Program-made: the position numbers and the translations under genes | The notes under the pieces: generated by a model | Database searches by the model: none | Told to the model about the DNA's origin: nothing | What the model saw: the letters and a program-made list of their open reading frames with translations, nothing else | Assembly (NCBI GenBank): GCA_046563655.1 | Contig: CM102289.1 | Coordinates: forward strand, 7,130,001 to 7,194,000 | Reading direction: 5' to 3' | Source: Yuukianura sp. NJ FZ-2021 | Taxonomy: Eukaryota | Length of the DNA stretch: 64,000 nucleotides | Shown here: one piece after another, positions 2,801 to 64,000 of the stretch | Layout of the letters: each line of letters begins with the position of its first letter | Position numbering within the stretch: the stretch's first letter is position 1

Positions 2801-2866
2801 TTTCAGAAATTGTTGCGCAACTTTTTTGGTTTTTTTTAATGAAGCCATATCCTGGTGGGATCGGGG

Positions 2867-6691: not shown

Positions 6692-6726
6692 ATCAAAATT
6701 TCTGAAGAAGAATTAAATTTGCCATA

Positions 6727-8844: not shown

Positions 8845-9591
8845 CGCAAAAGTTTATATTATTTTAACTCTGTTTTCAGAAAAAGTTCCAGATACTAGCT
8901 CTGTAAAACAAAGAATTTCATTTAAGTATGCCTAACGTTTATTTTTGGTAATAGCATTTTGGTATCTAAAACAAAAGTTTTGCAAAGATTCAAAAAAGAT
9001 AAGGAAAGAAATTGTATTTTCAAAACTGCAGGTTTGTTGACTTCAGTTTCTGATGACATATTTAGGCTGGTGTTTCTAAGATCGCAAAAGATTTTTCAGC
9101 ACCAACATTTTTCCCTTGAACTTCGCGAAAACTGTCTTAGACATACACTCTTTTGAATACAAAATTTGAACATGACATTCCGTTGGAAATTTTAAATCCC
9201 AAAAGGCGCGTTTAGATATGCATATGCTTTAAGCTGAATTTGGAAAACCAAAACGTTCAAAAACAAACGAAAACGTTCTTTTTCATATTTGTTTGAAGTA
9301 AAGTGAAAATTTGAATCTGTTTTGCGTCTAACGCACTTAGAGAGGTTGTCGGTAACATGAAACAAGAGTTCCTATTTAAGTATAGTCCTCGTAAGGTTTT
9401 TAAATTTACTTACCGAAATCTTCAATTTAACTTTAACCATTATCAAAACTATAAAAACCAAATTATCAAATCAGAGTTATTGACGAAGAGAAACCCCTAT
9501 TGTTAGGAATACAAAAACATTTAAGCGTTCTTATTGTTGTTAGCAACTGGCTTCATTTCGCTCGATTCAGTTCATAAAGTTCGTTTTTGCA

Positions 9592-12500: not shown

Positions 12501-13077
12501 ACTAATGATGACATTAACTCAAGACCACCGCCGCAACAAACAACAACGACAAACCCGAAACCACCGCCAACTAAATCGGTGTATACGCTTCAAGATTTGA
12601 AGTGGTTGATTGCTGACACGCTTACAATTGATGATACCGACGACGGAACCTCCAAAAACTACCGAGTCGCAAAATCCGAACAAGAGGTTAATGCAAGCTT
12701 TGAAAATTTTTTTATTTGCAGTGCAAGAAATGTCACAAACACTAAAAATTGACATTTCTCGTCAAATTTTCAGAGTAGCAACTCTACTGGTACTGGGTCC
12801 GAGTGTACGATTAAGAGCCCAGGCTCTAGAATCAACAGAGGGAAAGGAAAATGCGAACACTTGAAAGATTGCATTCACGATGACTTTGTTGATGATTTTG
12901 ACGTTTACCAGGACTCATACTTCTGTCCCATCCAGTCAACGTAAGAATTTTCTAAAATTCCGATTCTGTCTTTAATGGTGAATTTTGTGAATTCCTACAA
13001 TTTTTGAGTATTCATATTCATCCTTTTCCAGGGCATCTTCAGAAGTGTTCGCTGGAGCATGTTGTGAAACGGCCTAA
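9592..13077 (+). CDS. Inter-alpha-trypsin inhibitor heavy chain-like protein, copy A (signal peptide, VIT, vWA, C-terminal clip-like Cys domain); multi-exon
   Basis: VIT: IRYRYSKTYVTSHVRN..AQEVTFQVILPETAFISKFVM. vWA: GYFVHFFSP..KHIVFILDVSGSMEGRKIEQMKEAM, ANGGTNINDAL, FLTDGE. Also FLERLWAYLTI and YGFVTSQTSLVVVKP. Ends FAGACCETA*. Confidence 0.9.
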
Positions 13078-13444
13078 AATGTTAACAAAGAAATCGCAGT
13101 AAAGGGCATTTTGTTGTAAAACGGAATGCTAAACTTCGAAAACTAAATTTGTTTTTTTTTTGTCTTACGCCCTTAGCGAGATTTTCGGTAACATTAGACA
13201 ATGGCAGGTCTTAAATTTTGGCCTCGTAAGATTTTTTAATTTACTGACGTTTCCGAAATCATCAATTTAAATTAACCTTGTAACTCCCAGTACAAAAACA
13301 ATAAAAAGCAAATTATCAAATCACAGTAATTACCGAGCAGAAATACCTATTGTAAGGCATACTCAAAATTTGAGCCTGCTCAGTGTTCCGTTAGCAACTG
13401 AACTTCATTTCGCTCGATTCAGTTCCGAATCGTCGTTTTTTGCA

Positions 13445-16400
13445 ATGCACTTTGCAATAGCGATAGCACTCTTCGCTGTGCCTGTTGTGACAGGAGTTCT
13501 CATCGATGGAAAATCTAGAGAACGGTCGCTCGTTTTGGCGACAGATCAGAAAGATGTACTTGCTGACCTGAATGACCTTGACCCCCAAACCTACCTAACA
13601 CGGAACCGCAGAGCTGCTAGTGCTTTGGAGCTGATTGAATTCAAAGTGGATGTCAAAATTAGGTATCGATACAGCAAGACCTACGTCACCTCACATGTCC
13701 GCAATTCTGATTCACGGGCACAGGAGGTCACCTTCCAAGTCATTTTGCCTGAAACTGCGTTCATTTCGAAATTTGTGATGTAAGTTATATTTTGAAACTT
13801 CTCAAAATTATGAATTTTACTGTACGTTGAATTTGGAATTGAAAAGTTTGGATTTGTTGCCACAGGGAAATTGATCACATACAGTATGAAGCCTATGTTA
13901 AAGAAAAGGAAGAGGCGAAAGCAGACTACGATCGTGCAAAATCTCGCGGTCAAAGTGCAGGACTATTAGAGTTGAAGTACGTCAATATAACTTAAAAATA
14001 TTAATAACATATGCATTTATAAATTCCAAATTATAAATTGCAGTGCCCGACATGCTAATGTTTTCAATGTCAACGTCAACATCAAAGCAGGTTCAATTGT
14101 TTGGTTCAACTTGACGTACGAGGAATTGTTGTCTAGAAGATTCGGAAGATACGAGCAAGCCATTACACTGAACGGAGATGAAGTAATTGAGTTATTCTAT
14201 TTACAATTTTATATTTATTAATACTTTCTTTAACATATAAAAGCACAAGCGTCATTAACATTTAGATTTCAAAGAACAATGACGTAAGAGTGCGCGTGAG
14301 CATTGAGGAGTCACAAGAATTGAAACACGTCAGAGCTTACAATTATCAAAATGAATTGGAAACAACGGACAGTGAAGGCTCAAGTAAAGATAATAATAAC
14401 GAAATAATTAAAACTAAATTTTTAAATTTTAAATTTGTAAAATTTTAGAAAAAGTTGACATAGACAAAGACGGAAAGAATCGTGCAACTATTATGTGGAG
14501 GCCTAGTTCAAAAACGGATATTTTGAAACGTTTTGTTATTCAGTATGACGTGAAACGCGAAGTTGATTCGGGAGAAGTTCTTGTATGAAAAAGCGGCACA
14601 TTTTTTTTAACACGAAGTTGTAGTAATATTTTAATTTTGTTTGTATCGACAGATTATGAACGGCTACTTTGTCCACTTTTTTTCGCCGCCAAAATTGAAA
14701 CCACTCCAAAAACATGTCGTTTTTGTGCTAGACGTTTCTGGTTCTATGGGCGGGAAGAAAATTGTACAGTTGAAAGAAGCCATGAGAGAAATTTTGAAAG
14801 ACTTACATTCTAAAGACTACATCAACCTTGTCATTTTCTCCGATACTGTCACGGTAGGCTTTCTACGTAAACAAGTTTTTTATTTTCTTAAAACACCTTT
14901 TTTTTCTTTTCAAAATTTTAAATATAATTTTTAGGTTTGGAGTCCTGGGGACGTTTATACCCCTCGATACGACTTTAGTGGTCGAGGTGTGCGACCTGAG
15001 AGCGAACGTCCACCACTTCAGCCATTTCGCGCAAACTCCAAAACCATTCAAGACGCTAAAAGCTACATTGATAGCTTGACGGCCAATGGCGGAACAAACA
15101 TCAATGATGCGTTAGTCGAAGCACTGACATTGATAGCCCGTTTTAAAAAAGCCAGAGACGACAATGAAAAGGGAAGTGACAAAAACAAAGCCGTTGCCTC
15201 TGCCTCTCCAGTTGAAATTTTAGAACCAAGAACAGAAAGCATGATTCTGTTTTTGACCGATGGAGAACCAACTTCCGGTGAAACAAATTTAGAAAAGATT
15301 CAAAAAAATATTCAACTTGGCAACCTTGGTCTGTCTGTCCCTCTGTTTTCATTGGCATTTGGAACTGGAGCCGATTTTACTTTTCTACGCAAACTCTCTT
15401 TGCAAAACCATGCTTTCGCACGTAAAATTTACGAAGCTGCAGATGCTTCTCTACAACTCCAAGGTTTCTACGCTGAAATTTCGTCACCGCTACTTTCAAA
15501 TGTCCAATTCAACTACACTTCTCCAGATTCACCTTACGCCGTTAGTGAAATCACGCGGACAACATTTCCAACGTTTTATAAAGGGTGGGAATTACCAGTA
15601 GCGGGAAAAATTGAGCCATCAAGAAACAAATTTTCTCCGGGAAATTCAGACGAAACACCAGAGCCAACACTGTCTTCGAAGATAGCCCACACTACCCTAC
15701 TGCCTTACCCACCCACAGATCATTGTCACTTCTACACCGATGTGAGTGGAATCGGCCATGATGGTCTCCACCACTGGCACAGACCAATGATTTACGTGCC
15801 CCACCGACCTTGGTGGTGCTACCCACCTCCTCCACCCACTCCAGTTACCACCACCCCCAAACCACCAACTGACGAAGACACTTTTCTAGAACGTCTTTGG
15901 GCATACCTCACAATTCAAAATTTGATTGAAAAGGATTTGGCGGGAGTTACAGAGTCAGGAGAGAGTGCAAAACAGAGGGCACTGCGATTGGCTCTTCAGT
16001 ACAGCTTTGTCACTGCGCAAACCTCTCTAGTTGTTGTCAAACCGGAATCTAAGGATGTTGCAAATGCAGAATCTGTTGATGATCGACCCTCAACGCCAGC
16101 ATATTATGCCGCAGGCGGAGGTATGTAAAAACGTAAAATTCAGCGTTGTTGCAACGCGGTAAATTTAAATTTTAAAGGTTTGCGCTCAAAAGGTGCTCGT
16201 CCAATTGCTTTCCGTAAAGGTTCTTTGAAGCTGGTGAAAGTATCCGGGTCGCGTGGAAGCGGGAATACACCCAAGGAGGAATCCTTTGATACGGCCCAGA
16301 CTGGAGCGAATTACGAAGAAGAATCAGTAAAGACAAGTGGAGGAGGCAGTTATGAAGTTGCTCGTAAGTCTGTCCGCAAGAAGTCAAGACCGCCAAAGCA

Positions 16401-16978
16401 ACTGCAAACAACGACAAAACTGCAACCGCCGACACAGCAATCGACGACAAAACCAGAACCCCCGACAACAAAGTCGATGTATACCCTGCAAGATTTGAAG
16501 TGGTTGCTTGGTGACATGCTTACAATTGATGATATCAACGACGGAACATCCAAGGATTACCGTGTCGCAAAATCCGAAAAAGAGGTAACCTGCAAGCTTT
16601 ACGGAAAGTTTTTATGGTGAAACAAATGTTTCAAAAACTAAAAGTAGTGATTTCTGTTTTAATTAAATTTTCAGATTAGCAATTCTGCTGTAGGGTCGGA
16701 GTGTACTATTGGGAACAATGGATCTAAACTGAATAGAGTGACAGGAAAATGCCAACATTTGAAAAATTGCATCCACAATGACTTTGTTGATGATTTTGAC
16801 GTTTACCAGGACTCATACTTCTGTCCCATCAAATCCACGTAAGAACTGTGTAGAATTCCGATTCTGTCCTGAATGGCGAATTTTGTGAATTTCCACAAGT
16901 TTTGAGTTTTTATAATCAAACTTATTTTCCAGGGCATCGTCAGAGATGTTCGCTGGAGCATGCTGTGAAAAGGCCTAA
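13445..16978 (+). CDS. Inter-alpha-trypsin inhibitor heavy chain-like protein, copy B (tandem duplicate)
   Basis: Same exon structure and motifs as copy A (KHVVFVLDVSGSMGGKKI, FLTDGEPT, FLERLWAYLTI). Ends FAGACCEKA* (TAA 16976-16978). Confidence 0.9.
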
Positions 16979-18629: not shown

Positions 18630-19404
18630 TCAGCCTTTAACACATTGCTAGAAATTGAAAAAAATTTGACATTAAGAAACTAAAAAAAAACTACAACAAT
18701 AAATACATGCTATGTAAAATCAAAATACCCCGAGGAAAACTTCATGAACGCATTGACCAACCTAATAAAAAAAATCATTTAAAGTTTTGTAAATGCAAGT
18801 TTGGATCAAGAGATGTGCGTACCTCCATGAACGCGAGGCAATTGGGGTCATTAGGTTGGCGGACTTTAGTACCTAAAATTTTCACATATAAAATTGAAAA
18901 TTTCAGTTTAAAGCTATAAGCGTTTTTAAACTTAAATTGCTCACCGTGATCTTTCATGCACTTTTCAACTCCATCTACAAGTGGTTGTTTGACTGAATCC
19001 GGTTTCATAACGTCCATGATATACTTGTAGATTTTGTCATGGTCTAACCCTCCGTCGGCATTCAGTAAGTTCTTCTTTTCCAAAACACAAACCCCAAAAC
19101 ACGAAATTTGCTCCATTGGAATTTTATAAACCGATAAAATTTTGAGCTCTCGCAAACATTCTGTGATGACTCCTTTTTGGGCATCAGTCATGCTCAAATC
19201 TTGGCCCAAGCATTGGAGTTCCTCCTGTGCAGTTGTTTCCTAAAAAAATTTTTTAAACAAGTTAAAAATTTGGGGAATATTTCCAATTCCAAAGTTGAAA
19301 TTTACTAATTGTAAGCCTCTTTTGAAATTTACCTCCAATGTTAGAAGAAATAGGAAAGTAGCTACGCCAATCTGAAACCACATAGATTTGAAAACAGGCG
19401 CCAT
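18630..19404 (-). CDS. Odorant-binding protein-like, 5 exons
   Basis: Spliced: MAPVFKSMWFQIGVATFLFLLTLE|ETTAQEELQCLGQ..ITECLRE..ISCFGVCVLEKKNLLNADGGLD..EKCMKDHG|TKVRQPNDPNCLAFME|VGQCVHEVFLG|QCVKG*. It has the OBP C-x3-C and C-x8-C spacing. Confidence 0.8.
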
Positions 19405-19999
19405 TTTAAAATTACAAGTCCAACTTCCACTTTTACTAATTACTCAAAGCGTTTCGTCCAGAAACAATTGCTTTTATATGAAACTTCTGTCATAATATAA
19501 AAATTGTACACGTTTCAAATTACTTTTTGTTTTTCAAATTAGGTAACCTATTCAAAAATATTGAAGCACTGACAAAAAACAACTTAGCATAAAAATCATA
19601 ATAATTAAACTTCATAGTATAAGTAAACCTTGTGTTTTGTCATTATTTTGATGGCTATGACGCTGTCATACAGCTAAAAAAAATACAGAAAGTTTTTGAA
19701 TTTGTCAAAAAAAATGCAGCAAAAGGAAAATTCCACAAATAAATTCTGGTTTGCGTGATACTTTTTGTGCTAAATAATTGAGTAATAATTTTGTGTTTGT
19801 TCTTCAAAATATCTATATAAACAGAAATAAATTTTTAGTTTAAATTGGATGAAAAAAGTCAATTGTGAATTGTCAACACTTTTAATTCAGCATGGTGTGA
19901 TCTTGACACAAAATTTACACCGGAAGTTCATTAACTTTGACATGTAATATTTTTCTGGAAAGTTGTGTAAGAACTGTCGATCTGCAAGGTACAACCAGG

Positions 20000-20980
20000 C
20001 TATGCTGTGCAGATCTAAAATAGAATTGACATAGCATTAATTTTCAGTTAAATTTTGAATGAAGATATATGAAATGTACCTCAAGGAAGGCGTCATGAAC
20101 ACACAGTCCAGTATTCATGAATGTTTGACAATTTGGATCATTGTCAGTTACTTGAGCTCCTGTGTGGATGATATAACATTATTTCCAAACTAACATCTGA
20201 ATCTAAAGTTCATGAATCTACAATACATTATAAATATGTACACAAGGTTTTACTGTAGAACGGTAGTAAATCAAGTTCATAGATAAGACTGTGTAGTTTG
20301 CAAAAAATATTGAAGCTATCGCAAAAAAATGATGAAACTGTTCATATTATACAGATACAGTACGGACATTTTCTGACCTTGACTTATTTGAGAAAAAGTA
20401 AGAACCTAAGTAGCTAAAGTATTCGCTGCTTGATTATGTTATGTACTTACCATGGGTTTTAATGCATTTATCTGCTGCATCAATAAGTAGCTTTTTAGTT
20501 TCTGCGTCTTGCATATGGTCATCAATGTATTTGAAAGCCTTCTCGTGATTAATTTTTCCATCTGGAGTTAACTTTTAAACAAAAAGGAATGTAAAAAATA
20601 CGAACTAAATTCAAATAATCACTAGACCTTAACATGAGAAACTTTTTTTTACCATGTCTTTCTTCTTCAAAATGCAAACTCCAAAGCAAGCAACTTTTTC
20701 CATAGGAATTTTCCAGATGGAGTTGATCTTATTTTCACTGAGACAGTCCATGATTTTTGCTTTCTCCTGCTCCAGCAACTTCACTTCTTGGCCACGACAG
20801 CTTGTCTCTTCTTGCCCCCATGCCAGCCCCTGAAAAAAAAAAGTTTCGAAATTTTGGAAAATAAATGGAAAAGTGTTTTGAAGTTTGGCAACTTTAAAAA
20901 CTCGGTTATGAACTAGAAGTCCAAGTATAATGTCTTACAGTCACAGTACAAAGTAAAACAACGAATGTGAGTAACATCAT
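20000..20980 (-). CDS. Odorant-binding protein-like paralog, 5 exons (absent from the ORF track)
   Basis: Spliced: MMLLTFVVLLCTVT|GLAWGQEETSCRGQ..IMDCLSE..KIPMEKVACFGVCILKKKDM|LTPDGKINHEKAF..DKCIKTHG|AQVTDNDPNCQTFMNTGLCVHDAFLE|ICTA*. All introns are GT-AG. Confidence 0.8.
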
Positions 20981-25714: not shown

Positions 25715-27218
25715 ATGGATTGTGTCGCAAACACGGAAAACGTAAGTCTAAACTTCAAAATTTAATGTACCAACAAAACAACGTGACATGGATCTATTTG
25801 AAGAAATTGAACAACAAAGCGACAATTCTATTTTAATTGTTTAGGCAATGGGTGAAAGACACAAGAACAAGAAGGAAGCTACCAAGAAATTGATACTGAC
25901 TGGAGTGTTATGTGTTATTTGGTATGTGGTGTCACTTTTCAAAGCACTACTGGCCAAGTACATTTCAACCATGTTCAAGAAACCACTGACCCTATCATTT
26001 GTCCAACTAGTTTCAATTTCAGTTTACTCTATTCCACTTTTATACTTTTGTAAATTGAAATTCAATCCTCTGTCAAAGTACTACTTCATACGATTCCTCA
26101 TACCACTGTCCATACTTAAAGCAATTACGACTGCATCGGGACACCTTGCAATATGGAATATATCGGTGTCATACAGTCAGATTAGTAAGTCTTAAGCTCA
26201 GTACACAATTTATTCAGTATATTTAAATATTTATTATACTATTTTAACAGTGAGAGCTTCGATGCCAGTGTTTACTGCCCTGTTTTGTTGGATTATACTT
26301 CGAACGACACTTTCGCTCCGATCCTACTTGACTTTGATACCAATCGTACTTGGAGTGGCTATTACGACTGTCACGGAAGCAGATTTTAGTCTGTTCGGTA
26401 TGTTTTGTGGCATGTTGGCAACATCAGGATCGAGGTAATTAGTTATTTAACTACGAAATAGTGAATTACTTTAGTTTTGGATGTATACATATGAATCCTA
26501 ATTGTTTTTAGTATTCAGACGATATACAACAAGATCCTAATGGAGAAGTCCAGAATCCACAGTTTCCAATTGACAGCCCTTCTCGGATGGACGTCAACTG
26601 CACTTTTTTTCTTCGTCTGGTTTAGTGCCGATGGCCTTGAATATCTTCACCTAAAAAATGTAAGTTTTTGTGTTACTTACGTCAAACATGTAACAATTGA
26701 AATACGTAAATAATTGGTGACATTTGAAGGTCAGTTGCAGCATGAAATGACATGTATTTTTGTTAATTGTGACACGAACATGATTTGACTTACAGAGTAC
26801 CGAAGTCAGTTCATCCAATTCTACTGGAAATACATGGGAATGGAAAGTATCTGGACTGTTAGTGCTGGATGGATTTACAAATTTTATACAAAACATCGTA
26901 GCTTTTGCAGTTCTGTTTTTGGTTTCGCCCACATCCTATGCTGTTGGAAACATAACAAAGAGGCCTGTGATTATAGCAGTTAGTATTGCTGTATTCAAAA
27001 ATACAGTGACATTATTCAATGTGCTTGGAATTGTGATTACTGTAATTGGTGCTTCGTTGTATACGTACTTTGAAATTGAAGAAGACAAACCGCCCAAATC
27101 GACTAGTAATATTAGTAGTACTTCTATTGACCAACTTCCGGACGGCGCTGCGCAGAATCCAGCTACATCAAAGCAATGCCTATTCCCACTACCTCCTGAA
27201 AACCCTAAAACTGTCTAG
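25715..27218 (+). CDS. SLC35E / triose-phosphate-translocator family (drug/metabolite transporter superfamily) protein, copy A; multi-exon
   Basis: Short first exon MDCVANTEN|. Motifs: LCVIWYVVS, PLTLSFVQL, SGHLAIWNISVSYSQI, RASMPVFTALF, YLTLIPIVLGVAITTVTE, NFIQNIVAFAVLFLVSPTSYAVGNITKRPVII. These match SLC35E1-type motifs. Confidence 0.85.
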
Positions 27219-28089
27219 TTAATACTGTTAATACAGAACCAGAGAAACATAAAGGTCTGCTACTTCACTTACATAGGTTATATACCCTAATTAAGTATTA
27301 ATCGTGATCAAAGTTGTATTATAAAGGCGCGAATTGAAAATGCAATCAATATCGATGGTAAAAAAATTTGAGGCACTAGTTGCCAATTTGCAAATAAATC
27401 CGAAGTATCCAACAAAAGTATTTGGTTGTTCCCAATTTCTGTAAATCTTTTTTTTGTATTAGATGCCCTCGTTTTTTTATTTACTGTCCAAAACACCAAA
27501 ACTAATTTAAACTTAATGAGTTAACAAAAAAAAATACTTGACTTTTTTTTGCACGGAAAATTTCATGTTAGTGGCGTTGTACGGACAAGGAAATCCATAA
27601 AAAACTTAAATAATCCATAAAAACATTTTTAAATACCTTTCCAGTGTATTGTTTTCCTGAAATTTGACAGGGGTGACACTTACGTCATACTGATTAATAG
27701 CCGTGTGAAAATTTTAACTTGGAAAGTGATTTAAATCAATATTTAAATTGTATGTTTGAAATTTTCATCCGAATTTTCCATACGACATGCTAATCCAATT
27801 GCAAATACTTCCCAGCTTTAGTAAAAAACACATTCACATGGCCATTTGTCCAAAATTTGTAATTGGAAGGTATAAAAATTCAATTCATGAACACAAAATC
27901 TGTCAGTCACGAGAATCACACTGTAAAAAAACATGTGCCCAAGAGAAAATTTTGAAAAATTATTTTGTTGAGTTTTAAACATATTTTAATTTAAGCCCAA
28001 GCACAACCATAAATATTTTAGAAACTTTTCGACAAAAAATTAGTCACTCTGAAAACTTCGAAAAAAGTAGATATAAGGTGATTAAAAAA

Positions 28090-29390
28090 ATGTACAAATT
28101 TTTAAAATTTGACTGTGTCGGAACTCGGAAATGGATTCTAACAGCAACACTTTGTGTAATTTGGTATTTAGTGTCACTAGTGAAAGCACTACTAGCAAAA
28201 TATATCTCAACTGTGTTTCATAGACCACTCACGCTTTCATTTACACAACTTTTGTCAATTTCAATTTATTCTGTACCACTTTTATTTTTTTGTAAGTTAA
28301 AATTCAATTGTGTTACGAAATATTACTTTTTTCGATTCCTCGTACCACTGGCAGCACTTAAAGCATTCACAACTGCCTCTGGACATCTTGCTATTTGGAA
28401 TGTTTCGCTTTCCTACAGCCAAATCAGTAAGTTTTCAAATTTAAAAAAACGCAAATGCGGAGTTACTCAGCTAAAGCTTTTAAAAAATTGTCAAAAGTCT
28501 TTGATTAAGATTTTGAAACAAAAATGTTATTAATTTTTCTCTTGAAAATTTTTAGTGCGAGCAACAATGCCGATCTTTACGGCTCTGTTTTCTTGGATTC
28601 TGTTGTCCACAAAGTTATCCATAAAAGGATACTTGACATTGATACCAATCGTAGCAGGAGTCGTTCTTACAACAGTAACCGAAACTGAATTCAGTTTGTT
28701 TGGTATGATTTGTGGACTTTTAGCTGCATCAGGATCCAGGTTTGTCAAAATTTGCTTAAAATTTTACATTTTTAGTTTTTGAAATCATAAAAACTGTTTT
28801 GGTGTAGTTTGCAATCCATTTTCAACAAAATTTGGATGAAAAATGCTGAGATTCATAGTTTCCAACTCGCAGCCTTGCTTGGGTGGGGCTCAACGTCAAT
28901 ATTCTTTTTCGTTTGGTTCGCCCATGATGGATTGGAACTTTTTCAAACTCGAAACGTAATTAAAAAATTTTCCATTTTTTTAAACAAAGTTTTTAGGTTT
29001 AAAATTTTTCTTTTGTTTTATCTACAGAACACTGACTTCAGTACGTTAGATTCTTGGAAGGTTCCAGGACTGCTTGTTTTAGATGGTTTTATAAAATTTG
29101 TTCAAAATACGACTTCGTTTGCAATTTTGTTTTTGATTACCCCCACGTCATATGCCGTAGCGAACGTCACCAAACGCCCCGTGATCATCGCAATTAGCAT
29201 TTACGTATTCAATAATGTCGTAACTTTGCTTAACATATTAGGAATTGTTATTCTAGTTATTGGAAGTTCACTTTATACATATGTCAAATTGGCTGAAAAA
29301 AATACAAAACATGTGCAAACGCCTACCGCAGAAATCGCTACGGAAGTTGTTTGCTCAGACACTAACATCCAACCAATAAAATCTGTATAA
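28090..29390 (+). CDS. SLC35E / TPT family transporter, copy B (tandem paralog)
   Basis: LCVIWYLVS, SGHLAIWNVSLSYSQI, RATMPIFTALF and TPTSYAVANVTKRPVII, with similar intron positions to copy A. Confidence 0.85.
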
Positions 29391-40748: not shown

Positions 40749-42893
40749 ATGAATTCTTTTGAAAAAGTTTTAAGATTTTTAATTATTTATATTTTTTCAA
40801 TTCCGATCCTGATTTTTATAACGCCGGCTAGATGGGTATTCGATTTTTTGACGGTTTACCATCCAGATTTCTTTCGAAGTCTAAACAGTCCGGAAAATCA
40901 TCGAAAGAAAGTCGAAAATGTTCAACGACAGGTACTATGTTCTTACAGTATGTGAAAAATTGTAGACAAAAATGGCGGGAAAATAACAGAGTTTCTGAAA
41001 TTTAAACTGTTTGTTAGGTTAAAGAGTGGAAGATGGCTGGAAAGAAGTCGCACATGTGCACTGCACGTCCCGCTTGGCAAACACTGTCTATCCGAAGGCT
41101 AAATAAAAGCAGATTTACACAAATCGAAATCGATTTGGAGGACATTATAGAAATCGACGAAAAAAATCAGGTCTTGTATAAAAAATTTTTTGCTGGTCTT
41201 TTGAAATTTTATGTCAGTGATAAACTGTTTTTGAAATTCATGTTTTCCCGCCAAATTTTTCTTAGATTATAAGCGTGGAACCAGGTTTGAAAATGGGAAC
41301 GCTAACTCACAGGCTGCTTGCACTTGGGTGGACGATTCCAGTCATTCCTGAATTTGAATCCCTTACAGTCGGTAAGTTTTTACCGCTTTTTTTTTTAATT
41401 TTTTTAAATTTCTATTCATGAAAAGTATTTTGAAATTTATGCCTTGTATAGGTGGATGCGTAAATGGCACTGGAATTGAAACGTCGTCGCACAAGTATGG
41501 CCTCTTTGCTGACGCTTGTCTTGAATTCGAACTCGTACTGTCCGATGGAAGCGTCGTCACTTGTTCTAAAGTAATTTCATTAAAAAATTATGATAAATTG
41601 TGTTGGTAATTTTGAAGTATGACTTCTATATTTTCATAATTTTATTTTGGTCAGGAAACCAATTCTGACTTGTTTCATTCCATTTCCTGGTCACATGGGA
41701 CGATTGGTTTTCTCACAGCAGTGAAGATCAAACTACTTCGAGCATCCAAGTAAAGGCAATTAAAAATTTCAAATTAAGGAGAAATTGAAAGTAGTTAACT
41801 CCAAATTTTTTGTTACCTTTAAAGATATGTGAAAGTGTCTTATTATCCAACAAATTGCATCGTCAAGGCGCAAAAACTTTTGCAAGAATCTGCGCATGAC
41901 TTCGTGGAGGGCATAATGTTTGGCTTGAACCAAATTGTGGTTATGCACGGAGAGCTGACTGATGAGCCAGATCATGACAAGGTGAAAATCCCAATGCCAA
42001 AAAATTCAATTTTTTTCATTTTCCAAATCGTTTACTCCTTTAAATTGACTTTTTTAGGTGAACCATATCAATCGTTGGTACAAACCGTGGTTCTACAAGC
42101 ACGTTGAGGCCAAACTTCAAGGTCAAAGGTCAAGTGTAGAGTACATTCCTGTCCGTGACTACTATCACAGGCATCAACGGAGTTACTTCTGGGAAGTGCC
42201 AATATGTTGTCCAATGGGCAATTGGGCTCCACTTCGTTTTATCATTGGATGGACATATCCGGTGAATTTTCAGTTGATGAAGCTCCTTTCCCCCGAATAT
42301 ATCTGGGATTTGGCTTATGATAAACGACACGTTCTGCAAGACTTCCTGATTCCTATGTCCAAGTTGAAAGACGCTGTGGAACTGTCGCATAAGGAAGTTG
42401 AGGTATGCGCATACGCAAAAGTCACCATAAACTTATAATCAAAATCTTTTCATACTTTTTATTAAATTTCAGGTTTATCCAATATGGCTCTGTCCGTGCA
42501 AATTTTTCAAAAACCCAGGCATGGCTCATCTCCCGCCAAATTCAGATGAAATGTACATCGACGTTGGAATCTATGGCATGACACCGAAAACCAAAAATTT
42601 CGATCCTAGAGAAAAAATCCGAAAATTAGAAGCCTTTGTTACTGAAAGCAAAGGGTGAGCTGATTTCAAATCAACATTATACAAGAAAATGCAAGAATTA
42701 GGATTCTGAAATTCTGTTGTTATGTTACAGATTTCAGTTTCTGTATGCTGACACGTACCTGACGCGAGATGAGTTTCGAAATATGTTTGATATGGAACAT
42801 TATGACAGAATCCGAAAATTGTACAACTGCCAAGATGCTTTTCCAGAAGTTTTTGATAAGGTTTCCAGACAGGCACGTCAAAAAAGCAGTTAG
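40749..42893 (+). CDS. DHCR24: Delta(24)-sterol reductase-like FAD oxidoreductase; multi-exon
   Basis: [130 protein letters not shown]. Confidence 0.92.
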
Positions 42894-58000: not shown

Positions 58001-61000
58001 TTTCAGAAGCAGTCGGTTGAACATTCAGTACAGACGCTATGTGTTTCCTAGTGCATATTTTTTACATAGTCATTGGCAAACAATTTGTGGAGCGCAGTTT
58101 ACATGTTAAGTGAACGTGAAAATAGCATTAAGTTAATCTCAAAGTTTAAAATGGAAGCGATAACGCCACTGAATCATCTCAATGACCTTGACATTCAAAC
58201 GAAAGTCGAATCTTTAGTGGGCAAAGACACTTCAAGGATAGTTGACATTGAGCAGAAAAGTTGGTTTGAACAACAAGAAATTCTAATGGTCAATGGTTTT
58301 CCCGTGTCGCTTGGAAGTCACGAGGGGATTCAAATCAAGCATTACATTCAAAATGGTCAATGTTTCCCGCCACAACTGCTGAGTTCTATTTTGAGAAGAG
58401 CGGGAGTTTTGGTTGATCCAGGATTTGAATTTGAAATTGAAAGTAGTGAAACTAGAAGTATCACTCGGACGGAGGAGAAACTGGAATTGAGGGATGAAAG
58501 TGGATTAGTTTTAGATGGAATTGTAACGGCGTCTGAAGATCGGCTTGGAAGTGGATCCGAATCTCCCGGACTTTGGGACTTGGGTTCTGTCAACTCCATT
58601 AAAACTTTTGGAAAACGGCGGGAAAATGACCAAAGTTCAAATAATTTTGAAATGAGACGGAAATATAAGCTGGGTTCAGTGGAAAGTGCTGGCAGTAGTT
58701 TATCCAGTTTTTGTTCCAGTTCTGAATCGGATGAATCAATATTGTCGTCTTCGCCATCTTCAGTTTTCCACCAATCATTTCCAAGTCCCAGAAATATTCA
58801 AAGTGTGAGTGTTTTTTGGGTCATTGTGTACATTTTTTAAAAAAATGGTCTAAAAACAGTTTTGTCGCGGCACTTTTCTAGAGTACGTGTGCCTTGTATG
58901 ACTTTAGCAATTTTCGGTAAACAGCTTTGAATTTGTGTAGTAGAGCGGCAGTTTTTCCAAAATTAACTACTTTTTTAGGAGTTTGGAAAAGTTGAACAAT
59001 TTTTTAAACAGGATTTGCGCTACAAAAAATGGAAAAGAGTTGTTGACATGCACTTTTAAACCTCCCCCGCAGCACACAGTCGCATCTCGTTTTGCTACAA
59101 AATGTCTATCGAAGCGTGTCCTAATTCCATTCAAACTTTCCTAAACCCCAAAACCATTAAGCCTAAGCCAAAATTTTCTCCGAAAAATTTCTCCATTAAC
59201 ACCACTACTAACCCATACACATGTTTGGATTAAGTTACTTTTTGTGCTAAAACCTAACAAAACTTTTTTTTTGGTTTCGTGTTTATAGCCAAGTATTTTT
59301 GGAACCGTGGCAGCATCCTCCGCTGAAGCTCTGCCCTACCCAAAACCTCATCATCACCACCGAAAAGTAAAAACAAAAATTGACACCTTTCTAGATAAAA
59401 AGGAGAGGCGTGTTTTGTAGGTGAAAGTGAAAGTTTGTCCTAACATCGCGTGCTGGGGCAGTAAAAGACGTAGTAACGGCCGTGCAAAAGTACAGTACAC
59501 GTGGGAAATGTTTTCTTTTACAACAAACTTTCACTTTTACAGCAAAACTTCACGTTCCTCGTCCACTTATTTTGAGTCACCCTGTACTTTTTCGGTGTGA
59601 GCACTAAACACAGTGTAAATAATGGATTCGTTGCTCTTCTCTCCAGACACTTCCCCAGACGCCAATCACTGGAAGTGGTTCCCAGAGTCTCATTGACGAA
59701 AGCCGACAAAACACCGCCGCGGCGCTGGATCGTCTCAGCTCACTTTCGTCTGAATCTTCGTCATCGTCGTCAACTTTTTCATCCGATGAAAAAATGCTTC
59801 TGGCTGGTCCTGAAACCATAGTTACGACAACCGTAGTCAAGCCATGTGACTGGGACAACGTAAGTCACTCAAAACCTAACCTAATTAACTAAAAATTCTG
59901 AACAAAATTTCCAAAATTTGAATTTCAAATTTCAAAAAATGCTTGTTATTCTAGGCTTTGGTGTATCAAGACACAACGCTGGTGTCAGGGACGCTGGACG
60001 CTCTGATTCAGCATCTCGTACCAACGCAGTCGTATTATCCAGATCGAGCCTACGTTTTTGCATTCCTTCTGTCATCTCGTCTCTACATCAAACCGCATGA
60101 ACTGCTTGGACGCGTTTTTCGCTTAGCCGTGGCCACTACACAACACTCCAATAAAATTGTAAGTGTCAAATAAACTTTAGACAGTTGGAGTAACAGCATG
60201 GCAAAACCGAACTAACATCATGGCACAGTTTACTACTCCGGAAGTGCAGTTTTGTGGTGCTAAATCTCCGTTTTTGTTTATTCAGCACACTTCTAAGGAA
60301 CTGAAAATAATTTCCCATGTGGTTCAACTGCTGGGTGAGTGGGCTGAACTGTTTCCATACGACTTTCGTGATGAACGAATGATGGCACATGTTAGAAGCA
60401 TAACCCAGAAATGTATTGCAGTCAACCCTACGGTAAACATAATTTTTATAAAGTATTAAATTATTATAATAGGAGTAATATAGTTGAGTAGTATAATAAT
60501 TTACAGTGAAGAGGTAAAAAGAAAGAAGGATTTGACGCCGTTAATCTTGTTGAACAGATCCGACAGGACGTGTCACAACTTCTGACTTCGTTACTGTCAC
60601 GCCTCACGTCTCTCGAGAGATACGAAAACTTTTTGCAGAGGATCAATACAGAAGCAGCACTAGGCGAACCCATTACAGCCGTAAGTTAACTGAACTTTGA
60701 CATTAGCCACAAAAATGTGGCTGCTAATTTGCACTTTCGTGGTAATTAAATTAACTTACTTCTATTTTTTATGAAATAGCCATCGATTCTAACAATTTGT
60801 CCTAACGCAAGAACGCTTGCGCAGCAGTTGACGCATATTGAACTGGATCGACTGTCTCACATTGGACCAGAAGAATTTGTTCAGGTATGTTTTAAACTAA
60901 ACAGTAAGGTTAGGCTGAAGATGAAAAAAATCAAGCGTGAAGTGTCACATGATCACTTGAAAAACAGTTATTTGACTTGAGATTTTGTTTTTTTTATGTT

Positions 61001-62135
61001 TTTAGGCCTTTGCCAAGGACACTTCTCAAGTGGAGACGAAGTACAAGGATTTGAAGAAAACGAGGAATCTCGAATCCTATGTTCAATGGTTCAACAGACT
61101 GTCATACTATGTCGCAACAGAGATTTGCAAGGTTGAGTGATTGACGTTTTCAATAGCATAACCAACATTACATTAGGCTAACTTAACTTAACCTTTTACA
61201 ACATTTAGATGCCAAAAAAGAAATCACGCGTTCGCATCATCGAGTACTGGATAGAAGCTGCCAAGGAATGTTTCAATATTGGAAACTTCAATTCTCTCAT
61301 GGCAGTTATTGCTGGACTGAACATGTCTCCGGTGTCACGACTCAAAAAAACTGTACGTTAAAATTTCAAAGTTACCAAAAAATGTTAGAAATTTGAAACA
61401 AATTTTGTCCACAGTGGCATAAGGTATCCAGTGCACAACTTTCCATTTTGGAGCATCAGATGGATCCATCCTCCAACTTTTCATCATATCGTTCAACTCT
61501 GAAGGTGCGAAAAACATTTCTCAAACTGTTTTTGAATAATTTTAAAAAATTGAATTTTAAAAAAATCCAAATTGTAACTTTTTTAAACATTGTTTTTAGG
61601 CTGCTGTTTGGAGGTCGACGGGAACGGCAGATGAGAGACAAAGAATTGTCATTCCATTTTTTTCTCTCCTTGTCAAAGATCTTTACTTTCTCAACGAAGC
61701 ATGCGCGTCAAAGTGAGTTTTTGTCTATTTCTAGCACAGAAAAGAAATTGAAAGGAAATGAAATCTTGAAATTTTGGATCAGGTTACCTAGTGGTCACAT
61801 TAATGTTGACAAGTTTTGGCAGTTGGCAAAGCAAGTGACAGAAGTCATAGCTTGGCAGCAAGTCACTTGCCCCTACTCCAAAATCCAAACCCTCATCAAC
61901 TCTCTCCAAACAGCTCCGATTTTTAGTGAAACAGGTTAGCTGTTAAAATTTTTGGGAAAAATTTAAAACCTTTACATTTTTGACTTTGAATTTTCCCATA
62001 GCTCTCTGTCTATCGTCCTACGAATGTGAAGCAGCAGACAATGCACAGGAGAAGGAACGCCTCAAGTATTTGCGAAATGAAGGCAACGCCAAAAAACTTT
62101 TTTCAGGCAGTACGGAAAAAGAGGATCTCAAATAG
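52022..62135 (+). CDS. RASGEF1: RasGEF domain-containing family member 1 (RASGEF1A/B/C-like) with alternative 5' exons
   Basis: Core exons from about 59290 encode ALVYQDTTLVSGTLDALIQHLVPT..YYPDRAYVFAFLLSSRLYIKPHELL, WAELFPYDFRDERMM, LAQQLTHIELDRLSHIGPEEFVQAF, WFNRLSYYVATEIC, ECFNIGNFNSLMAVIAGLNMSPVSRLKKTW, LEHQMDPSSNFSSYRSTL and INVDKFWQLAKQV, ending EDLK*. Candidate upstream exons are 52022-52108, about 54443-54561 and about 54648-54742, with an alternative large exon at 58151-about 58804. The core is certain; the 5' exons are inferred. Confidence 0.85.
55542..55617. repeat. Short degenerate minisatellite (about 15-17-bp units), probably a transposon remnant
   Basis: tttcggagcaattgg / tttcggagtaatgcacc / tttcgaagcaattga / tttcgcagcagttca / tgcggagtaatgg. 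Confidence 0.55.
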
Positions 62136-62843
62136 TTGTGTCAAAAATTTGGATTTCAAAAACTTAGAAACTGGAGGATTTTGAAATTTACAACAATATT
62201 TGTCTACCCTTGCACCTTCTTCTTTTGGAACTGCTTTTTTAAATTGATGTTCACAGTAATTATTTCAATGACAAACTGTCTAGTCACTTAAACTGGTTGG
62301 TTACCCAGCACTAAGGTTAACCTTTTACCAAAACATTTCAAGGTTTGATGTTCACTGTATTCTGAATAAAAATTTATTCAACTTAAACATTTAACAAAGT
62401 ACTATTATTTGTTTCTATAATGATTACTTTAATATTTGCTTTGGTTGTAAAGTAGTAACGATAGCAGGTACAAAGGCATTTGGTTGCATACGAATCTATT
62501 GAACAAAAAATTATGAAGGTTATCAACAACTAGGAATCCACTGTTTGAATTTTAAATCCTTACACGCTTGCTGTATTCAAAAGTTCAAATCTCCCTAACA
62601 TTTAAAAACAACATTAGTTGAACACAAAACCTAAACTAATCGGTAAAATAATCGAGCCTAACTTCCCAACTTTAAAAACTAATTATGCTCAATGTAGTTA
62701 ATCTTGCCTAATTAAGTCAAAAGACCTTTTGGAAAAATTATTTTGGGTAGACTCGACTACTGTAGTAAAATTTGAAAAACAAAACGGAGCATACACAAAT
62801 ATTTCTAAAAACAGAACTTTTCTAGAGTTCATTAGACTACGTG

Positions 62844-64000
62844 ATGGTCCAGTTTAACACATTAATACTGTTCTGCTTCACGGCTGTTCAACTTACTGAT
62901 CATCAACATTTTCTCAAAGGTAACCCGTTAATTAGTTGTTAAATTTTTAATTATTTTTAGTTTATTTTTGAAAAATAGTGTGGAGACATAAAAGCTATTG
63001 CTCTTTATATATTTACAGTCAAGCACGTTGGACACAATTTGCTCAGCGTCGTTAGTCGCAGTGAATACGCATGCGTAAGAAAAAGATGTCGCATTGCTAT
63101 AATTTCTGACCATAGTGATCCAGCGTTAGAAGAACTTGGGACAGAGGGGGCTGGAGGTCAAAATGTTTACGTGCGACAATTTGGGGAGCATTTGTCGCAA
63201 CTCGGCTGGGACGTTGATATGTTCACACGGCAGTGGCGGAAACAGCCGAGGATTGTTCGTCATAATCCGAATTGTCGGACGATTAGACTTAGAGCTGGTC
63301 CGTTTGAAAATATACATCGAGATATTCTACTACCTCATATGGACGAATTCTTAAAGTCATTTCTACACTTTCAAGGGCAAAATAATGTTACATACGATGT
63401 GATTCATACAAACTACTGGTTGTCAGGAGTCGTCGGGGTCAAGGTCAAGCACATTTCCCCTTCAATACCGCTTGTGCATGTGTTTCACTCTTTAGGAAAG
63501 GTCAAGGACAATTGGCTTCAAGGTCAAAGGTCATCAAGAACAAATATTTCAGTTCATACGGGTACCAACGAGAGAATTGAAGCTGAACAAAAGATACTGG
63601 ATGAAGCCGATTTGATAATTGCTACCAGTCCTCATGAAGCGCAAGATTTTGAACGCCATTATTCAACATCAAAGTTCAGAAAAAATGTTGTCGTGGTTCC
63701 AGCGGGGGTGAACTTGGATCACTTTGGGGTCACGGGGTCACGTGACACAAAAATTCAAGCCCGCGAAAAGCTTAGCTTAAACCCAAATTCAAAATTGGTT
63801 CTTTACGTAGGAAGATTTGACCGCCGAAAAGGCATTGACGTACTGGTTGAAGCGATTAGCCAATCAGCGTTCCGCGATGACCCGAACTTTCAACTTGTGA
63901 TTGCAGGCGGAACGACTGAGGGAATGGCAGACGAAGTTGAATTCAAACAAATACGAAGATTAGTTCATCAAAGAGACATGCAGAATTCTACAAAGTTTCC
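62844..64000 (+). CDS. GT4 glycosyltransferase resembling cyanobacterial sucrose-phosphate synthase (MshA/SPS group); exon 1 62844-62919, intron 62920-63018, exon 2 63019 to beyond 64000 (runs off the window)
   Basis: Open frame with no stops: CRIAIISDHSDPALEELGTEGAGGQNVYVRQFGEHLSQLGWDVDMFTRQ..HNPNCRTIRLRAGP..YDVIHTNYWLSGVVG..VHVFHSLGKVK..RIEAEQKILDEADLIIATSPHEAQ..VVPAGVNLDHF..AREKLSLNPNSKLVLYVGRFDRRKGIDVLVEAI..LVIAGG. The phase-1 intron runs G|gtaacc to tttacag|TC. Confidence 0.9.

What the first reader, a model, noticed from the sequence alone, without database searches (positions are those of the whole stretch)
62844..64000. Cyanobacterial-type sucrose-phosphate-synthase-like glycosyltransferase embedded in an animal genome
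Seen in sequence: an uninterrupted frame of more than 320 codons, missed by the ORF track because it runs off the window, about 700 bp after the host RASGEF1 stop. Established knowledge: the motif series RIA(I/L)IS-x-H-x-DPA..(E/G)AGGQNVYVRQ-x-GE-x-L-x-QLGW-x-VDMF(T/S)R..CRTIRL-x-AGP..HTNYWLS..H(T/V)(Y/F)HSLG..ATSP-x-E..VLYVGRFD-x-RKGI is, from my recollection, the pattern of the minimal glucosyltransferase-only sucrose-phosphate synthases of Nostoc/Anabaena (SpsA/SpsB) in CAZy GT4. Actinobacterial MshA is the more distant relative. Animals are not known to synthesise sucrose. Inference: horizontal transfer from a soil cyanobacterium or bacterium, possibly providing a new sugar-osmolyte (drought or cold protection) or glycoside-forming pathway.
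Basis: partly seen in the sequence, partly recalled or inferred. Interest (0 to 1): 0.88.

Follow-up and report, generated by a model that had tools for sequence, protein, structure and literature searches.

The report
Cyanobacterial-type sugar transferase gene in animal
An animal genome carries an intact gene for a sugar-adding enzyme whose closest relatives are the small sucrose-phosphate synthases of cyanobacteria, apparently taken up from bacteria and refitted with an intron and a secretion-like leader, though what it makes in the animal is still unknown.

Summary
A stop-free frame of 340 codons (62979 to the window end, + strand) encodes a GT4 glycosyltransferase, 708 nt after the stop of a RasGEF gene. 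Its best solved relative is the sucrose-phosphate synthase of Thermosynechococcus (TeSPS, 6KIH, E 1.5e-52), ahead of MshA (8.4e-41). By my count 51 of its 120 best database hits carry an organism name; 50 are cyanobacteria and one is the fly Bradysia.

It is not a contaminant. One 31.6-kb contig spans RasGEF to the transferase. A run from a second organism joins the AT-rich upstream DNA, the intron and the frame.

An upstream ATG exon (62844-62919) joins in frame across a GT..AG intron and adds a hydrophobic, signal-like leader. A metagenomic relative (L001, 52% identity) has the same two-exon plan. A Romanomermis (nematode) protein has a similar leader. Bradysia and hagfish (Myxine) also carry members of the family.

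The five TeSPS substrate-contact residues that fall inside the window are kept. Sucrose-6-phosphate synthesis is untested, and the leader argues against a cytosolic role. The transfer and the family assignment are supported; the function is open. I found no paper on this enzyme in animals.

The parts
62136..62843 (.). Spacer between the RasGEF stop and the transferase start; holds the presumed promoter and 5' UTR
   Evidence: 30% GC, below the 38-46% of the eight host ORFs measured. Contigs of X1 and X2 (runs of one sample) carry a variant in which 73 nt (62669-62741) are replaced by 38 other letters (tables 5 and 5c). A contig of organism B (X5) covers 62321-63375 in one piece (record 31).
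62844..62919 (+). Predicted exon 1: ATG plus 25 codons and one base, encoding a hydrophobic, signal-peptide-like leader (MVQFNTLILFCFTAVQL...)
   Evidence: Read from the sequence and translated. Kyte-Doolittle maximum over 11 residues is 2.35, against 0.5-1.8 in the cyanobacterial, Bradysia and Myxine N-termini. Exon 2 has no in-frame ATG before the first conserved motif, so an upstream start exon is needed. There is no RNA evidence.
62920..63018 (+). Predicted phase-1 intron, 99 nt, GTAACC...TTTACAG
   Evidence: Canonical GT..AG ends, 22% GC, and the splice restores the frame. The relative L001 has a phase-1 intron of 75 nt (GTAAGT..TTTAG) between a similar leader exon and the catalytic exon.
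63019..64000 (+). Exon 2 (partial; runs off the window): GT4 glycosyltransferase catalytic region
   Evidence: Open frame. Collinear with cyanobacterial proteins apart from small insertions. GC 43.5% and GC3 38.8%, inside the range of host ORFs.
63153..63719 (+). N-terminal (acceptor-side) Rossmann domain, Pfam Glyco_transf_4 / Glyco_trans_4_4
   Evidence: PF13439 E 1.8e-21 and PF13579 E 2.8e-19, ORF residues 39-227. Holds Q41, R94, H150 and R179. R94, H150 and R179 correspond to TeSPS R105, H158 and R178.
63756..63998 (+). Start of the C-terminal (nucleotide-sugar) domain, Pfam Glycos_transf_1; the rest lies beyond the window
   Evidence: PF00534 E 5.5e-12, ORF residues 240-320, profile positions 4-77 of 172. 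Holds R259 and R263, which correspond to TeSPS R249 and R253, the UDP-phosphate contacts.

Best explanation
This is a gene of bacterial, cyanobacterial-type origin that now resides in an animal chromosome and looks functional. It belongs to the family of minimal sucrose-phosphate synthases (TeSPS, Anabaena SPS-A), a branch of the MshA-like GT4 retaining glycosyltransferases.

Shown:
- The family assignment.
- The physical linkage to animal genes.
- An intact frame with host-like base composition.
- Retention of the residues that in TeSPS hold the glucose 6-OH (His), the acceptor phosphate (two Arg) and the UDP phosphate (two Arg).

Inferred:
- After transfer the gene gained an upstream start exon and a phase-1 intron.
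- The new exon encodes a hydrophobic, signal-like leader. The same plan is seen in a metagenomic eukaryotic relative, and a similar leader in a Romanomermis protein.

Mechanism I commit to: the protein transfers a hexose from a UDP-sugar, with retention, onto an acceptor that probably carries a phosphate. UDP-glucose is the donor by analogy with TeSPS. My odds are about 65% that the leader takes the protein into the secretory pathway. There fructose-6-phosphate is not expected, so the animal enzyme would act on a different, still unknown acceptor. I put about 20% on it still making sucrose-6-phosphate in vivo.
For: - Family: Pfam GT4 N-domain and the start of Glycos_transf_1. The best solved relative is TeSPS 6KIH at E 1.5e-52, against MshA at 8.4e-41 and H. 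orenii SPS at 1.3e-12.
- Full-length relative: L001 matches 6KIH at 284 bits against 157 for MshA. Its AlphaFold model (pLDDT 90) has 6KIH as its first structural neighbour, TM 0.92 normalised to the target.
- Nearest sequences: by my count 51 of the best 120 hits carry an organism name; 50 are cyanobacteria and one is Bradysia.
- Trees: window plus P0001/L001 are sisters (SH-aLRT 94 and 96) inside a clade (95 and 97) that holds the cyanobacterial TeSPS-like proteins.
- Residues: R94, H150, R179, R259 and R263 equal TeSPS R105, H158, R178, R249 and R253.
- Linkage: X3 record 17, a 31,591-nt contig, covers 59000-63997 in one piece with 119 differences. X5 record 31, from another organism label and another study, covers 62321-63375.
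- Eukaryotic features: a GT..AG intron of 22% GC, a spacer of 30% GC, and coding GC and GC3 in the host range.
- Shared gene plan and leader in L001, and a similar leader in Romanomermis.
- The organism-B piece covering 63436-63901 has 18 substitutions and no gaps, while the piece that is mostly non-coding has 20 gaps.
Against: - There is no RNA evidence for the exon model or for expression.
- The last roughly 110 residues, including the catalytic Glu of the EX7E motif, lie outside the window. They could be checked only in the relative L001, where E331 and E339 are kept.
- X1-X3 come from one sample, which may be the source of the assembly, so only X5 is independent. X5 does not bridge to RasGEF: depth is 0.17-0.47 in 62006-62339.
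- The signal-like leader rests on hydrophobicity alone. The window's leader lacks a clear cleavage motif by my own reading.
- The acceptor-phosphate arginines are not uniformly kept in the relatives. L001 has Gln at R178 and Romanomermis has Ala at R105. MshA also has Lys and Arg at these two places, so they do not single out fructose-6-phosphate.
- The window protein has 9 extra residues between H150 and R179 relative to cyanobacterial proteins, inside the acceptor-side region.
- The grouping with Romanomermis has only 83-85 SH-aLRT and involves a long branch of 2.44.
Confidence: 0.75

Rival explanations
1. It is a working cytosolic sucrose-phosphate synthase. With a phosphatase, it lets the animal make sucrose as an osmolyte or desiccation protectant.
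For: The closest characterised enzyme is TeSPS, whose activity with UDP-glucose and fructose-6-phosphate was shown by assay and mutants (PMC7264703, passages read). In the window protein, the TeSPS contact residues that fall inside the window are all kept, and so is the Gln of the GGQ motif.
Against: - The predicted leader is hydrophobic and signal-like in the window, in L001 and in Romanomermis. That does not fit a cytosolic enzyme.
- The relatives have lost one or other acceptor-phosphate Arg, and L001 has Val in place of the GGQ Gln.
- There is a 9-residue insertion in the acceptor-side region.
- No phosphatase partner could be sought.
- The kept residues are also kept or conservatively replaced in MshA.
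Confidence: 0.2
2. The gene was not transferred recently or repeatedly. It is an old animal (or older eukaryotic) gene, inherited vertically and lost in most lineages.
For: The AU test does not reject one clade for all six animal and metagenomic rows (p 0.379, log-likelihood difference 4.28). The animal rows sit basal to the cyanobacterial crown rather than inside one cyanobacterial genus.
Against: - Each animal lineage is more similar to Nostoc proteins than to the other animal lineages. The window is 47-48% identical to Nostoc, against 35% to Romanomermis, 42% to Bradysia and 36% to Myxine. Bradysia is 56-59% identical to Nostoc.
- The leader and its intron are seen in the window and L001, and a similar leader in Romanomermis, but neither Bradysia nor Myxine has such a leader.
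- Only these few animal lineages turned up among 3120 representative hits. Only 30 of those proteins were looked up by name, so others may be hidden.
Confidence: 0.07
3. The frame is a cyanobacterial contaminant joined to animal DNA by an assembly error.
For: The frame runs off the window, so its far side cannot be seen here. X1-X3 may be the very reads the assembly was built from.
Against: - A 31.6-kb contig that differs from the window at 119 places still joins RasGEF to the frame.
- A run with another organism label and from another study joins upstream spacer, intron and frame.
- The protein is only 44-48% identical to any cyanobacterial protein.
- Translation needs an upstream exon and a GT..AG intron.
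- The k-mer depths of the transferase pieces (153-217 in X1) are like those of the RasGEF pieces (133-183). This is a weak point, because contig depth is coarse.
Confidence: 0.02
4. The gene is a transferred relic that is no longer used, still open by chance or only recently inactivated.
For: There is no expression evidence. In organism B the transferase coding piece differs at 3.9% (18 of 466). The RasGEF pieces, which include introns, differ at about 1-5%.
Against: - 340 open codons in 37% GC DNA.
- Key residues are kept.
- There are no gaps in the coding piece of organism B.
- A relative at 52% identity is also intact over 467 codons, with both EX7E glutamates kept.
Confidence: 0.05

Closest known systems
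Minimal cyanobacterial sucrose-phosphate synthases: TeSPS (tll1590, PDB 6KIH) and Anabaena SPS-A
   Same: It is the best solved relative by sequence (E 1.5e-52). For the full-length relative L001 it is also the best by fold (TM 0.92 normalised to the target, 40% identity). Both are glucosyltransferase domains alone, without a fused phosphatase domain. TeSPS residues R105, H158, R178, R249 and R253 are kept. The gene lies in the same well-supported clade.
   Different: - Identity is only about 45%, and the gene sits on a long stem outside the cyanobacterial crown.
- It has 9 extra residues between the His and the second Arg.
- It has an N-terminal hydrophobic leader encoded by a separate exon.
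- It sits in an animal genome next to RasGEF.
- Activity is untested, and the catalytic glutamates are not visible in the window.
MshA, D-inositol-3-phosphate N-acetylglucosaminyltransferase of actinobacteria (PDB 3C48/3C4Q; NCBIfam TIGR03449)
   Same: Same GT-B GT4 fold with a phosphorylated acceptor. It is the second-best solved relative (E 8.4e-41) and the top NCBIfam model by score (177.6 bits). Public annotation of the Bradysia and Myxine homologues uses this name.
   Different: The score is far below the curated cut-off (177.6 against 462.5; the full-length relative P0001 scores 203.5). The true MshA representative, P0158 (692 bits), falls in the outgroup of the tree and is 32% identical.
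Animal-borne members of the same family: Bradysia coprophila XP_037025486.1 and B. odoriphaga KAG4065739.1, Myxine glutinosa UPI00358E4D98, Romanomermis culicivorax A0A915I903
   Same: They are the same TeSPS-like family found in animal records. Romanomermis shares a signal-like leader and insertions at the same places. It groups with the window at SH-aLRT 83-85.
   Different: They are 35-42% identical to the window protein, less than the window is to Nostoc. Bradysia and Myxine lack the leader and sit elsewhere in the tree. One origin or several cannot be told apart (AU p 0.379). I did not check whether those records are free of contamination. The Bradysia protein lies on a 13-Mb contig and is present in two species.
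Two-domain and Halothermothrix-type SPS (PDB 2R60; NCBIfam TIGR02472) and plant SPS (TIGR02468)
   Same: The same reaction class is proposed, and the fold is GT4.
   Different: They are distant: 2R60 at E 1.3e-12, TIGR02472 at 108.6 bits against a cut-off of 576, and TIGR02468 at 25 bits. The Nostoc TeSPS-like proteins also fail TIGR02472 (113-151 bits). That model therefore does not cover the minimal-SPS family, and failing it says little.

Membership tests
GT4 / GT-B retaining glycosyltransferases | N-terminal GT4 Rossmann domain | tested here: met
   PF13439 at 77.3 bits (cut-off 28.5) and PF13579 at 70.5 bits (cut-off 29.7).
GT4 / GT-B retaining glycosyltransferases | C-terminal nucleotide-sugar domain with the EX7E glutamates | tested here: inconclusive
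   Only the first 77 of 172 profile positions of PF00534 lie in the window (46 bits). The glutamates lie beyond the window end. In the 52%-identical relative L001 both are present.
Minimal cyanobacterial SPS (TeSPS / Anabaena SPS-A family) | Closer to TeSPS than to MshA or other GT4 enzymes | tested here: met
   181.8 against 143.3 bits. For L001, 284 against 157 bits, and 6KIH is the first fold hit.
Minimal cyanobacterial SPS (TeSPS / Anabaena SPS-A family) | Falls inside the clade of TeSPS-like proteins on a tree | tested here: met
   It lies inside the clade with SH-aLRT 95 (91 rows) and 97 (47 rows), but on the stem outside the cyanobacterial crown. Both are quick trees of subsampled rows without bootstraps.
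Minimal cyanobacterial SPS (TeSPS / Anabaena SPS-A family) | TeSPS residues that contact glucose, the sucrose-6-phosphate phosphate and the UDP phosphate (H158, R105, R178, R249, R253) | tested here: met
   H150, R94, R179, R259 and R263 of the ORF. These are not specific to SPS, because MshA P0158 has Lys and Arg at the two acceptor positions.
Minimal cyanobacterial SPS (TeSPS / Anabaena SPS-A family) | Catalyses UDP-glucose + fructose-6-phosphate -> sucrose-6-phosphate | not testable with these tools
   This needs a recombinant enzyme assay.
Minimal cyanobacterial SPS (TeSPS / Anabaena SPS-A family) | Soluble cytoplasmic protein that starts directly at the RIALIS strand | tested here: not met
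   The predicted product has a 50-residue N-terminal extension with a hydrophobic leader. This rests on a gene model without RNA support.
SPS glycosyltransferase domain, NCBIfam TIGR02472 | Score at or above the curated cut-off of 576 bits | tested here: not met
   108.6 bits for three quarters of the protein. The TeSPS-like Nostoc proteins score 113-151 bits, so the model does not cover this family.
MshA, NCBIfam TIGR03449 | Score at or above the curated cut-off of 462.5 bits | tested here: not met
   177.6 bits. The full-length relative P0001 scores 203.5 bits.
Horizontally acquired gene in an animal | Nearest relatives are prokaryotic, and the gene is absent from most animals | tested here: met
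   By my count 50 of 51 organism-named rows among the best 120 are cyanobacteria. Among representatives, only Bradysia, Myxine and Romanomermis were identified as animals, from 30 looked up by name.
Horizontally acquired gene in an animal | Physically linked to undoubted host genes in independent data | tested here: met
   A 31.6-kb contig spans 59000-63997, but it comes from the same sample as the likely source of the assembly. An independent run joins 62321-63375 only.
Horizontally acquired gene in an animal | Eukaryotic gene features (intron, host-like composition, expression) | tested here: inconclusive
   The intron and composition fit and the intron plan is shared with L001. Expression was not tested, because no RNA holder is listed.

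The most novel reading that the evidence does not exclude
Several far-apart animal lineages have each taken up the same cyanobacterial minimal sucrose-phosphate synthase. These are the window's organism together with an unknown metagenomic eukaryote and perhaps a mermithid nematode, the sciarid flies, and a hagfish. In the window's lineage the enzyme is active. Either it gives an animal the first step of sucrose synthesis, or, carried into the secretory pathway by its new leader, it founds a new kind of animal glycosylation on a phosphorylated acceptor.
Probability: 0.2. Interest if true: 0.85.

Novelty: new member of a known kind. Interest (0 to 1): 0.6.

Why it matters
Bacterial genes that settle in animal genomes and gain introns and targeting signals are a known but still short list. 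Each clear case shows how a foreign enzyme is fitted into animal cell biology.

This case involves the enzyme family that starts sucrose synthesis in cyanobacteria, a pathway animals are not known to have. The family also turns up in at least three other distant animal lineages under uninformative automatic names. If the enzyme is active, one of two things follows. Either an animal makes sucrose-6-phosphate or a related sugar phosphate, or a cytosolic bacterial enzyme has been re-aimed at the secretory pathway. Both can be tested directly with one recombinant protein.

Four full-text searches found no paper on this family in animals.

Tried and rejected
- Own genome: none is held. The 3' end of the gene, other copies and a sucrose-phosphate phosphatase could therefore not be sought.
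- RNA evidence: no RNA holder is listed.
- Host taxon:
  - A 708-aa ionotropic-receptor-like ORF found nothing at E <= 1e-10.
  - A DHCR24-like exon gave a nematode, Acrobeloides nanus, as best named hit at 53%, followed by metagenomic, chytrid and methanotroph proteins.
  - Two Atlas look-ups were uninformative.
  - Rfam found nothing in the window.
  - The host is clearly an animal and looks ecdysozoan (PBP_GOBP, CBM_14, astacin, EB). I could not place it further.
- Tandem repeats in 61000-64000: none.
- Earlier findings of this scan: nothing on this genome or this sequence, and one unrelated note.
- NCBIfam labels for 100 of the 149 new representatives: only P0158 passes the MshA cut-off, and none reaches any SPS model at E <= 1e-95.
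- Glucosylsucrose synthase (TeGSS/Alr1000, PMC9909042) was considered because its gene neighbours TeSPS. No chain named as TeGSS or tll1591 appears among the five PDB hits at E <= 1e-5, so I rejected it.
- Names for the sister groups outside the clade: mostly unnamed metagenome proteins. One is a Deltaproteobacteria MAG and one is 'bacterium HR26'. The donor is therefore 'cyanobacterial-type', not a named genus.
- dN/dS between organisms A and B could not be computed. Read laying gives tables, not sequences, and prints only part of the differences.
- In X5 there is almost no cover at 62006-62339, so that run does not bridge to RasGEF.
Full report
**1. Observation**

The frame is real. One search lists an ORF at 63039..63998 on the + strand, 320 aa and open at the 3' end. 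From stop to stop it starts at 62979, giving 340 codons inside the window. With the window's base composition, 340 open codons have a probability of 3.2e-11. The longest open frame in 100 shuffles of the window was 233 codons.

The upstream gene is a RasGEF (Pfam RasGEF_N and RasGEF). It ends with TAG at 62133-62135, 708 nt before the ATG at 62844. A loose contig end shows the frame going on for about ten codons past the window.

**2. Family**

Pfam finds the GT4 N-terminal domain (PF13439, E 1.8e-21) and the first part of Glycos_transf_1.

Against solved structures the ranking is as follows:

| Chain | Protein | E-value | Bits |
|---|---|---|---|
| 6KIH | Tll1590 | 1.5e-52 | 181.8 |
| 3C48 | MshA | 8.4e-41 | 143.3 |
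| 2R60 | H. orenii SPS | 1.3e-12 | 50.7 |

PMC7264703 shows that Tll1590 is a sucrose-phosphate synthase, here called TeSPS. [quoted passage not shown] I read passages and the Catalytic Center section. The same paper says Anabaena SPS-A is 54% identical to TeSPS. Cumino et al. 2002 I saw only as cited there.

Two Nostoc hits, P0009 and P0004, match 6KIH at 464 bits. The cyanobacterial crown around the window protein is therefore the minimal-SPS family.

The NCBIfam models give an apparently opposite ranking. MshA scores 177.6 bits and the SPS domain model TIGR02472 scores 108.6 bits, both far below their cut-offs. But the TeSPS-like Nostoc proteins also score only 113-151 bits on TIGR02472. 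That model stands for another SPS branch.

**3. Relatives and tree**

In the word-indexed search, the best hit is an unnamed metagenome protein, P0001, at 52% identity. Cyanobacterial proteins follow at 42-47%. By my count 51 of the 120 listed rows carry an organism name; 50 are cyanobacteria and one is Bradysia coprophila.

The exhaustive search of 50%-identity representatives gave 3120 hits at E <= 0.001. Only P0001 was above 50% identity over a full-length match; two short fragments (P0141, P0144) reach 52-53% over the conserved N-terminal part.

I looked up names for 30 representatives. The named ones include:
- P0126, from the nematode Romanomermis culicivorax.
- P0132, from the hagfish Myxine glutinosa.
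- P0078 and P0276, from two Bradysia species.

I built two quick IQ-TREE trees from subsampled rows. The first had 91 rows: every third full-length hit, the first 45 full-length representatives and a few forced rows. The second had 47 hand-picked rows. Both gave the same picture:
- The window protein and P0001/L001 are sisters (SH-aLRT 94 and 96).
- Romanomermis joins them weakly (85 and 83), on a long branch.
- All sit inside a clade (95 and 97) that holds the cyanobacterial proteins, but basal to the cyanobacterial crown.
- Bradysia and Myxine sit apart and are unresolved.

An AU test does not reject one clade for all six animal and metagenomic rows (p 0.379). However, each animal lineage is more like Nostoc than like the other animal lineages. 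I think several transfers more likely than one, but this is not settled.

**4. Is it really in the animal genome?**

The window's other ORFs carry animal-type domains: GH18, CBM_14, astacin, TPT, ligand-gated channel, Gar1/Naf1, EB and PBP_GOBP.

laid the contigs of four runs on 59000-64000:
- A 31,591-nt contig of X3 covers 59000-63997 in one piece. It has 119 differences and 13 gaps, so it is another haplotype or individual, not a copy of the assembly.
- X1-X3 are one sample and may be the assembly's source, so this is not fully independent.
- X5 has another organism label and comes from another study. One of its contigs covers 62321-63375: spacer, leader exon, intron and the first 357 nt of exon 2. 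A second covers 63436-63901 with 18 substitutions and no gaps.
- X5 does not bridge to RasGEF.

Coding GC (43.5%) and GC3 (38.8%) lie inside the range of eight host ORFs. The intron is 22% GC and the spacer 30% GC. The protein is no more than 48% identical to any cyanobacterial protein. Contamination is very unlikely.

**5. Gene structure**

Exon 2 has no in-frame ATG before the first conserved strand. The ATG at 62844 opens 25 codons plus one base. GTAACC follows at 62920, and TTTACAG ends at 63018. The splice restores the frame.

The product starts with a hydrophobic stretch (MVQFNTLILFCFTAVQL). The metagenomic relative was fetched as L001. It has the same plan: an ATG exon at 832-898 with a hydrophobic leader, a phase-1 intron of 75 nt (GTAAGT..TTTAG), and one uninterrupted exon to the stop. 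L001 is therefore eukaryotic DNA too.

The Romanomermis protein also begins with a signal-like stretch. The Bradysia, Myxine and cyanobacterial proteins do not. The window, L001 and Romanomermis also share insertions after the HSLGxxK motif and before the PxG strand.

None of this has RNA support.

**6. What it does**

TeSPS numbering equals the chain index of 6KIH minus 3, which I checked on five residues. The window protein keeps these TeSPS residues:

| TeSPS residue | Window ORF residue | Role in TeSPS |
|---|---|---|
| R105 | R94 | sucrose-6-phosphate phosphate |
| R178 | R179 | sucrose-6-phosphate phosphate |
| H158 | H150 | glucose 6-OH |
| R249 | R259 | UDP phosphate |
| R253 | R263 | UDP phosphate |

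The glutamates E331 and E339 lie beyond the window. L001 keeps both. An AlphaFold model of L001 exon 2 (pLDDT 90) has 6KIH as its first structural neighbour and MshA as its second.

So the protein is very probably an active retaining UDP-sugar transferase with a phosphate-bearing acceptor.

Several points argue against a plain sucrose-phosphate synthase:
- The signal-like leader.
- The 9-residue insertion between H150 and R179.
- The loss of one acceptor Arg in each of L001 and Romanomermis, and of the GGQ Gln in L001.
- MshA has equivalent basic residues at the same places.

My odds:
- About 65% that the protein enters the secretory pathway.
- About 20% that it makes sucrose-6-phosphate in vivo.
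- About 50% that it acts on another acceptor.

**7. Known or new**

Four full-text searches found no paper on this family in animals. I saw only the listings and abstracts of what they returned. Public records of Bradysia, Myxine and Romanomermis carry the homologues under automatic names.

The finding is a new member of a known kind: a bacterial enzyme gene domesticated in an animal. It has two unusual sides. The enzyme family is one that animals are not known to use, and the same family recurs in far-apart animals.

**8. Limits**

- The host taxon is not resolved. It looks ecdysozoan. The best named hit of one conserved exon is a nematode, and there are two OBP-like ORFs.
- The gene's 3' end, its expression, its partners and its activity could not be tested here.

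Noticed in passing
window 1822-2866 (-), with 791-1162 (+): A GH19 chitinase domain ORF matches Pfam PF00182 (E 1.1e-13). Its best solved relatives are plant class IV and Streptomyces GH19 chitinases (E about 1e-22 to 1e-20). It lies directly downstream of a CBM_14 peritrophin-A exon on the same strand, next to a GH18 fragment. GH19 is uncommon in animals (my recollection), so this may be a second gene of foreign origin.
   Followed up: partly
window 3616-8853, 9544-16620, 18775-20934, 25845-29390: Several tandem gene pairs: two long single-exon ionotropic-receptor-like ORFs (697 and 708 aa), two VIT/VWA (ITIH-like) genes, two OBP-like ORFs of which only one reaches Pfam PBP_GOBP, and two TPT-family transporters.
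   Followed up: no
window 41823-42438 (+): A DHCR24-like exon has a nematode protein (Acrobeloides nanus, 53%) as its best named hit. The next hits are mostly metagenomic and methanotroph (Methylococcales) proteins at 44-50% and a chytrid at 46%. No arthropod or vertebrate DHCR24 is listed, possibly because of the word index.
   Followed up: no
window 59904-59939: A stretch of about 35 nt inside the RasGEF region also occurs on at least four other contigs of run X3, and many loose ends start there in all four runs. It is a short dispersed repeat or low-complexity element (tables 7 and 8).
   Followed up: no
window 62668-62742 and 59000-63997: Heterozygosity is high. The spanning X3 contig differs from the window at 119 places and 13 gaps in 5 kb. 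A variant in X1 and X2 replaces 73 nt of the spacer with 38 other letters.
   Followed up: no
P0127 (unnamed ENA protein, 422 aa): This relative inside the TeSPS-like clade has Ser where TeSPS has the essential Glu331 (YSPSG instead of YEPFG) and lacks part of the GGQ loop. It may be an inactive or re-purposed member.
   Followed up: no
PDB 8VRF, 8UAG, 9DCM (fold search on the L001 model): Solved 'sucrose-phosphate synthase(-like)' proteins of Leishmania major appear as distant structural neighbours (17% identity). This is another eukaryote with an SPS-like GT4, but not of this clade.
   Followed up: no
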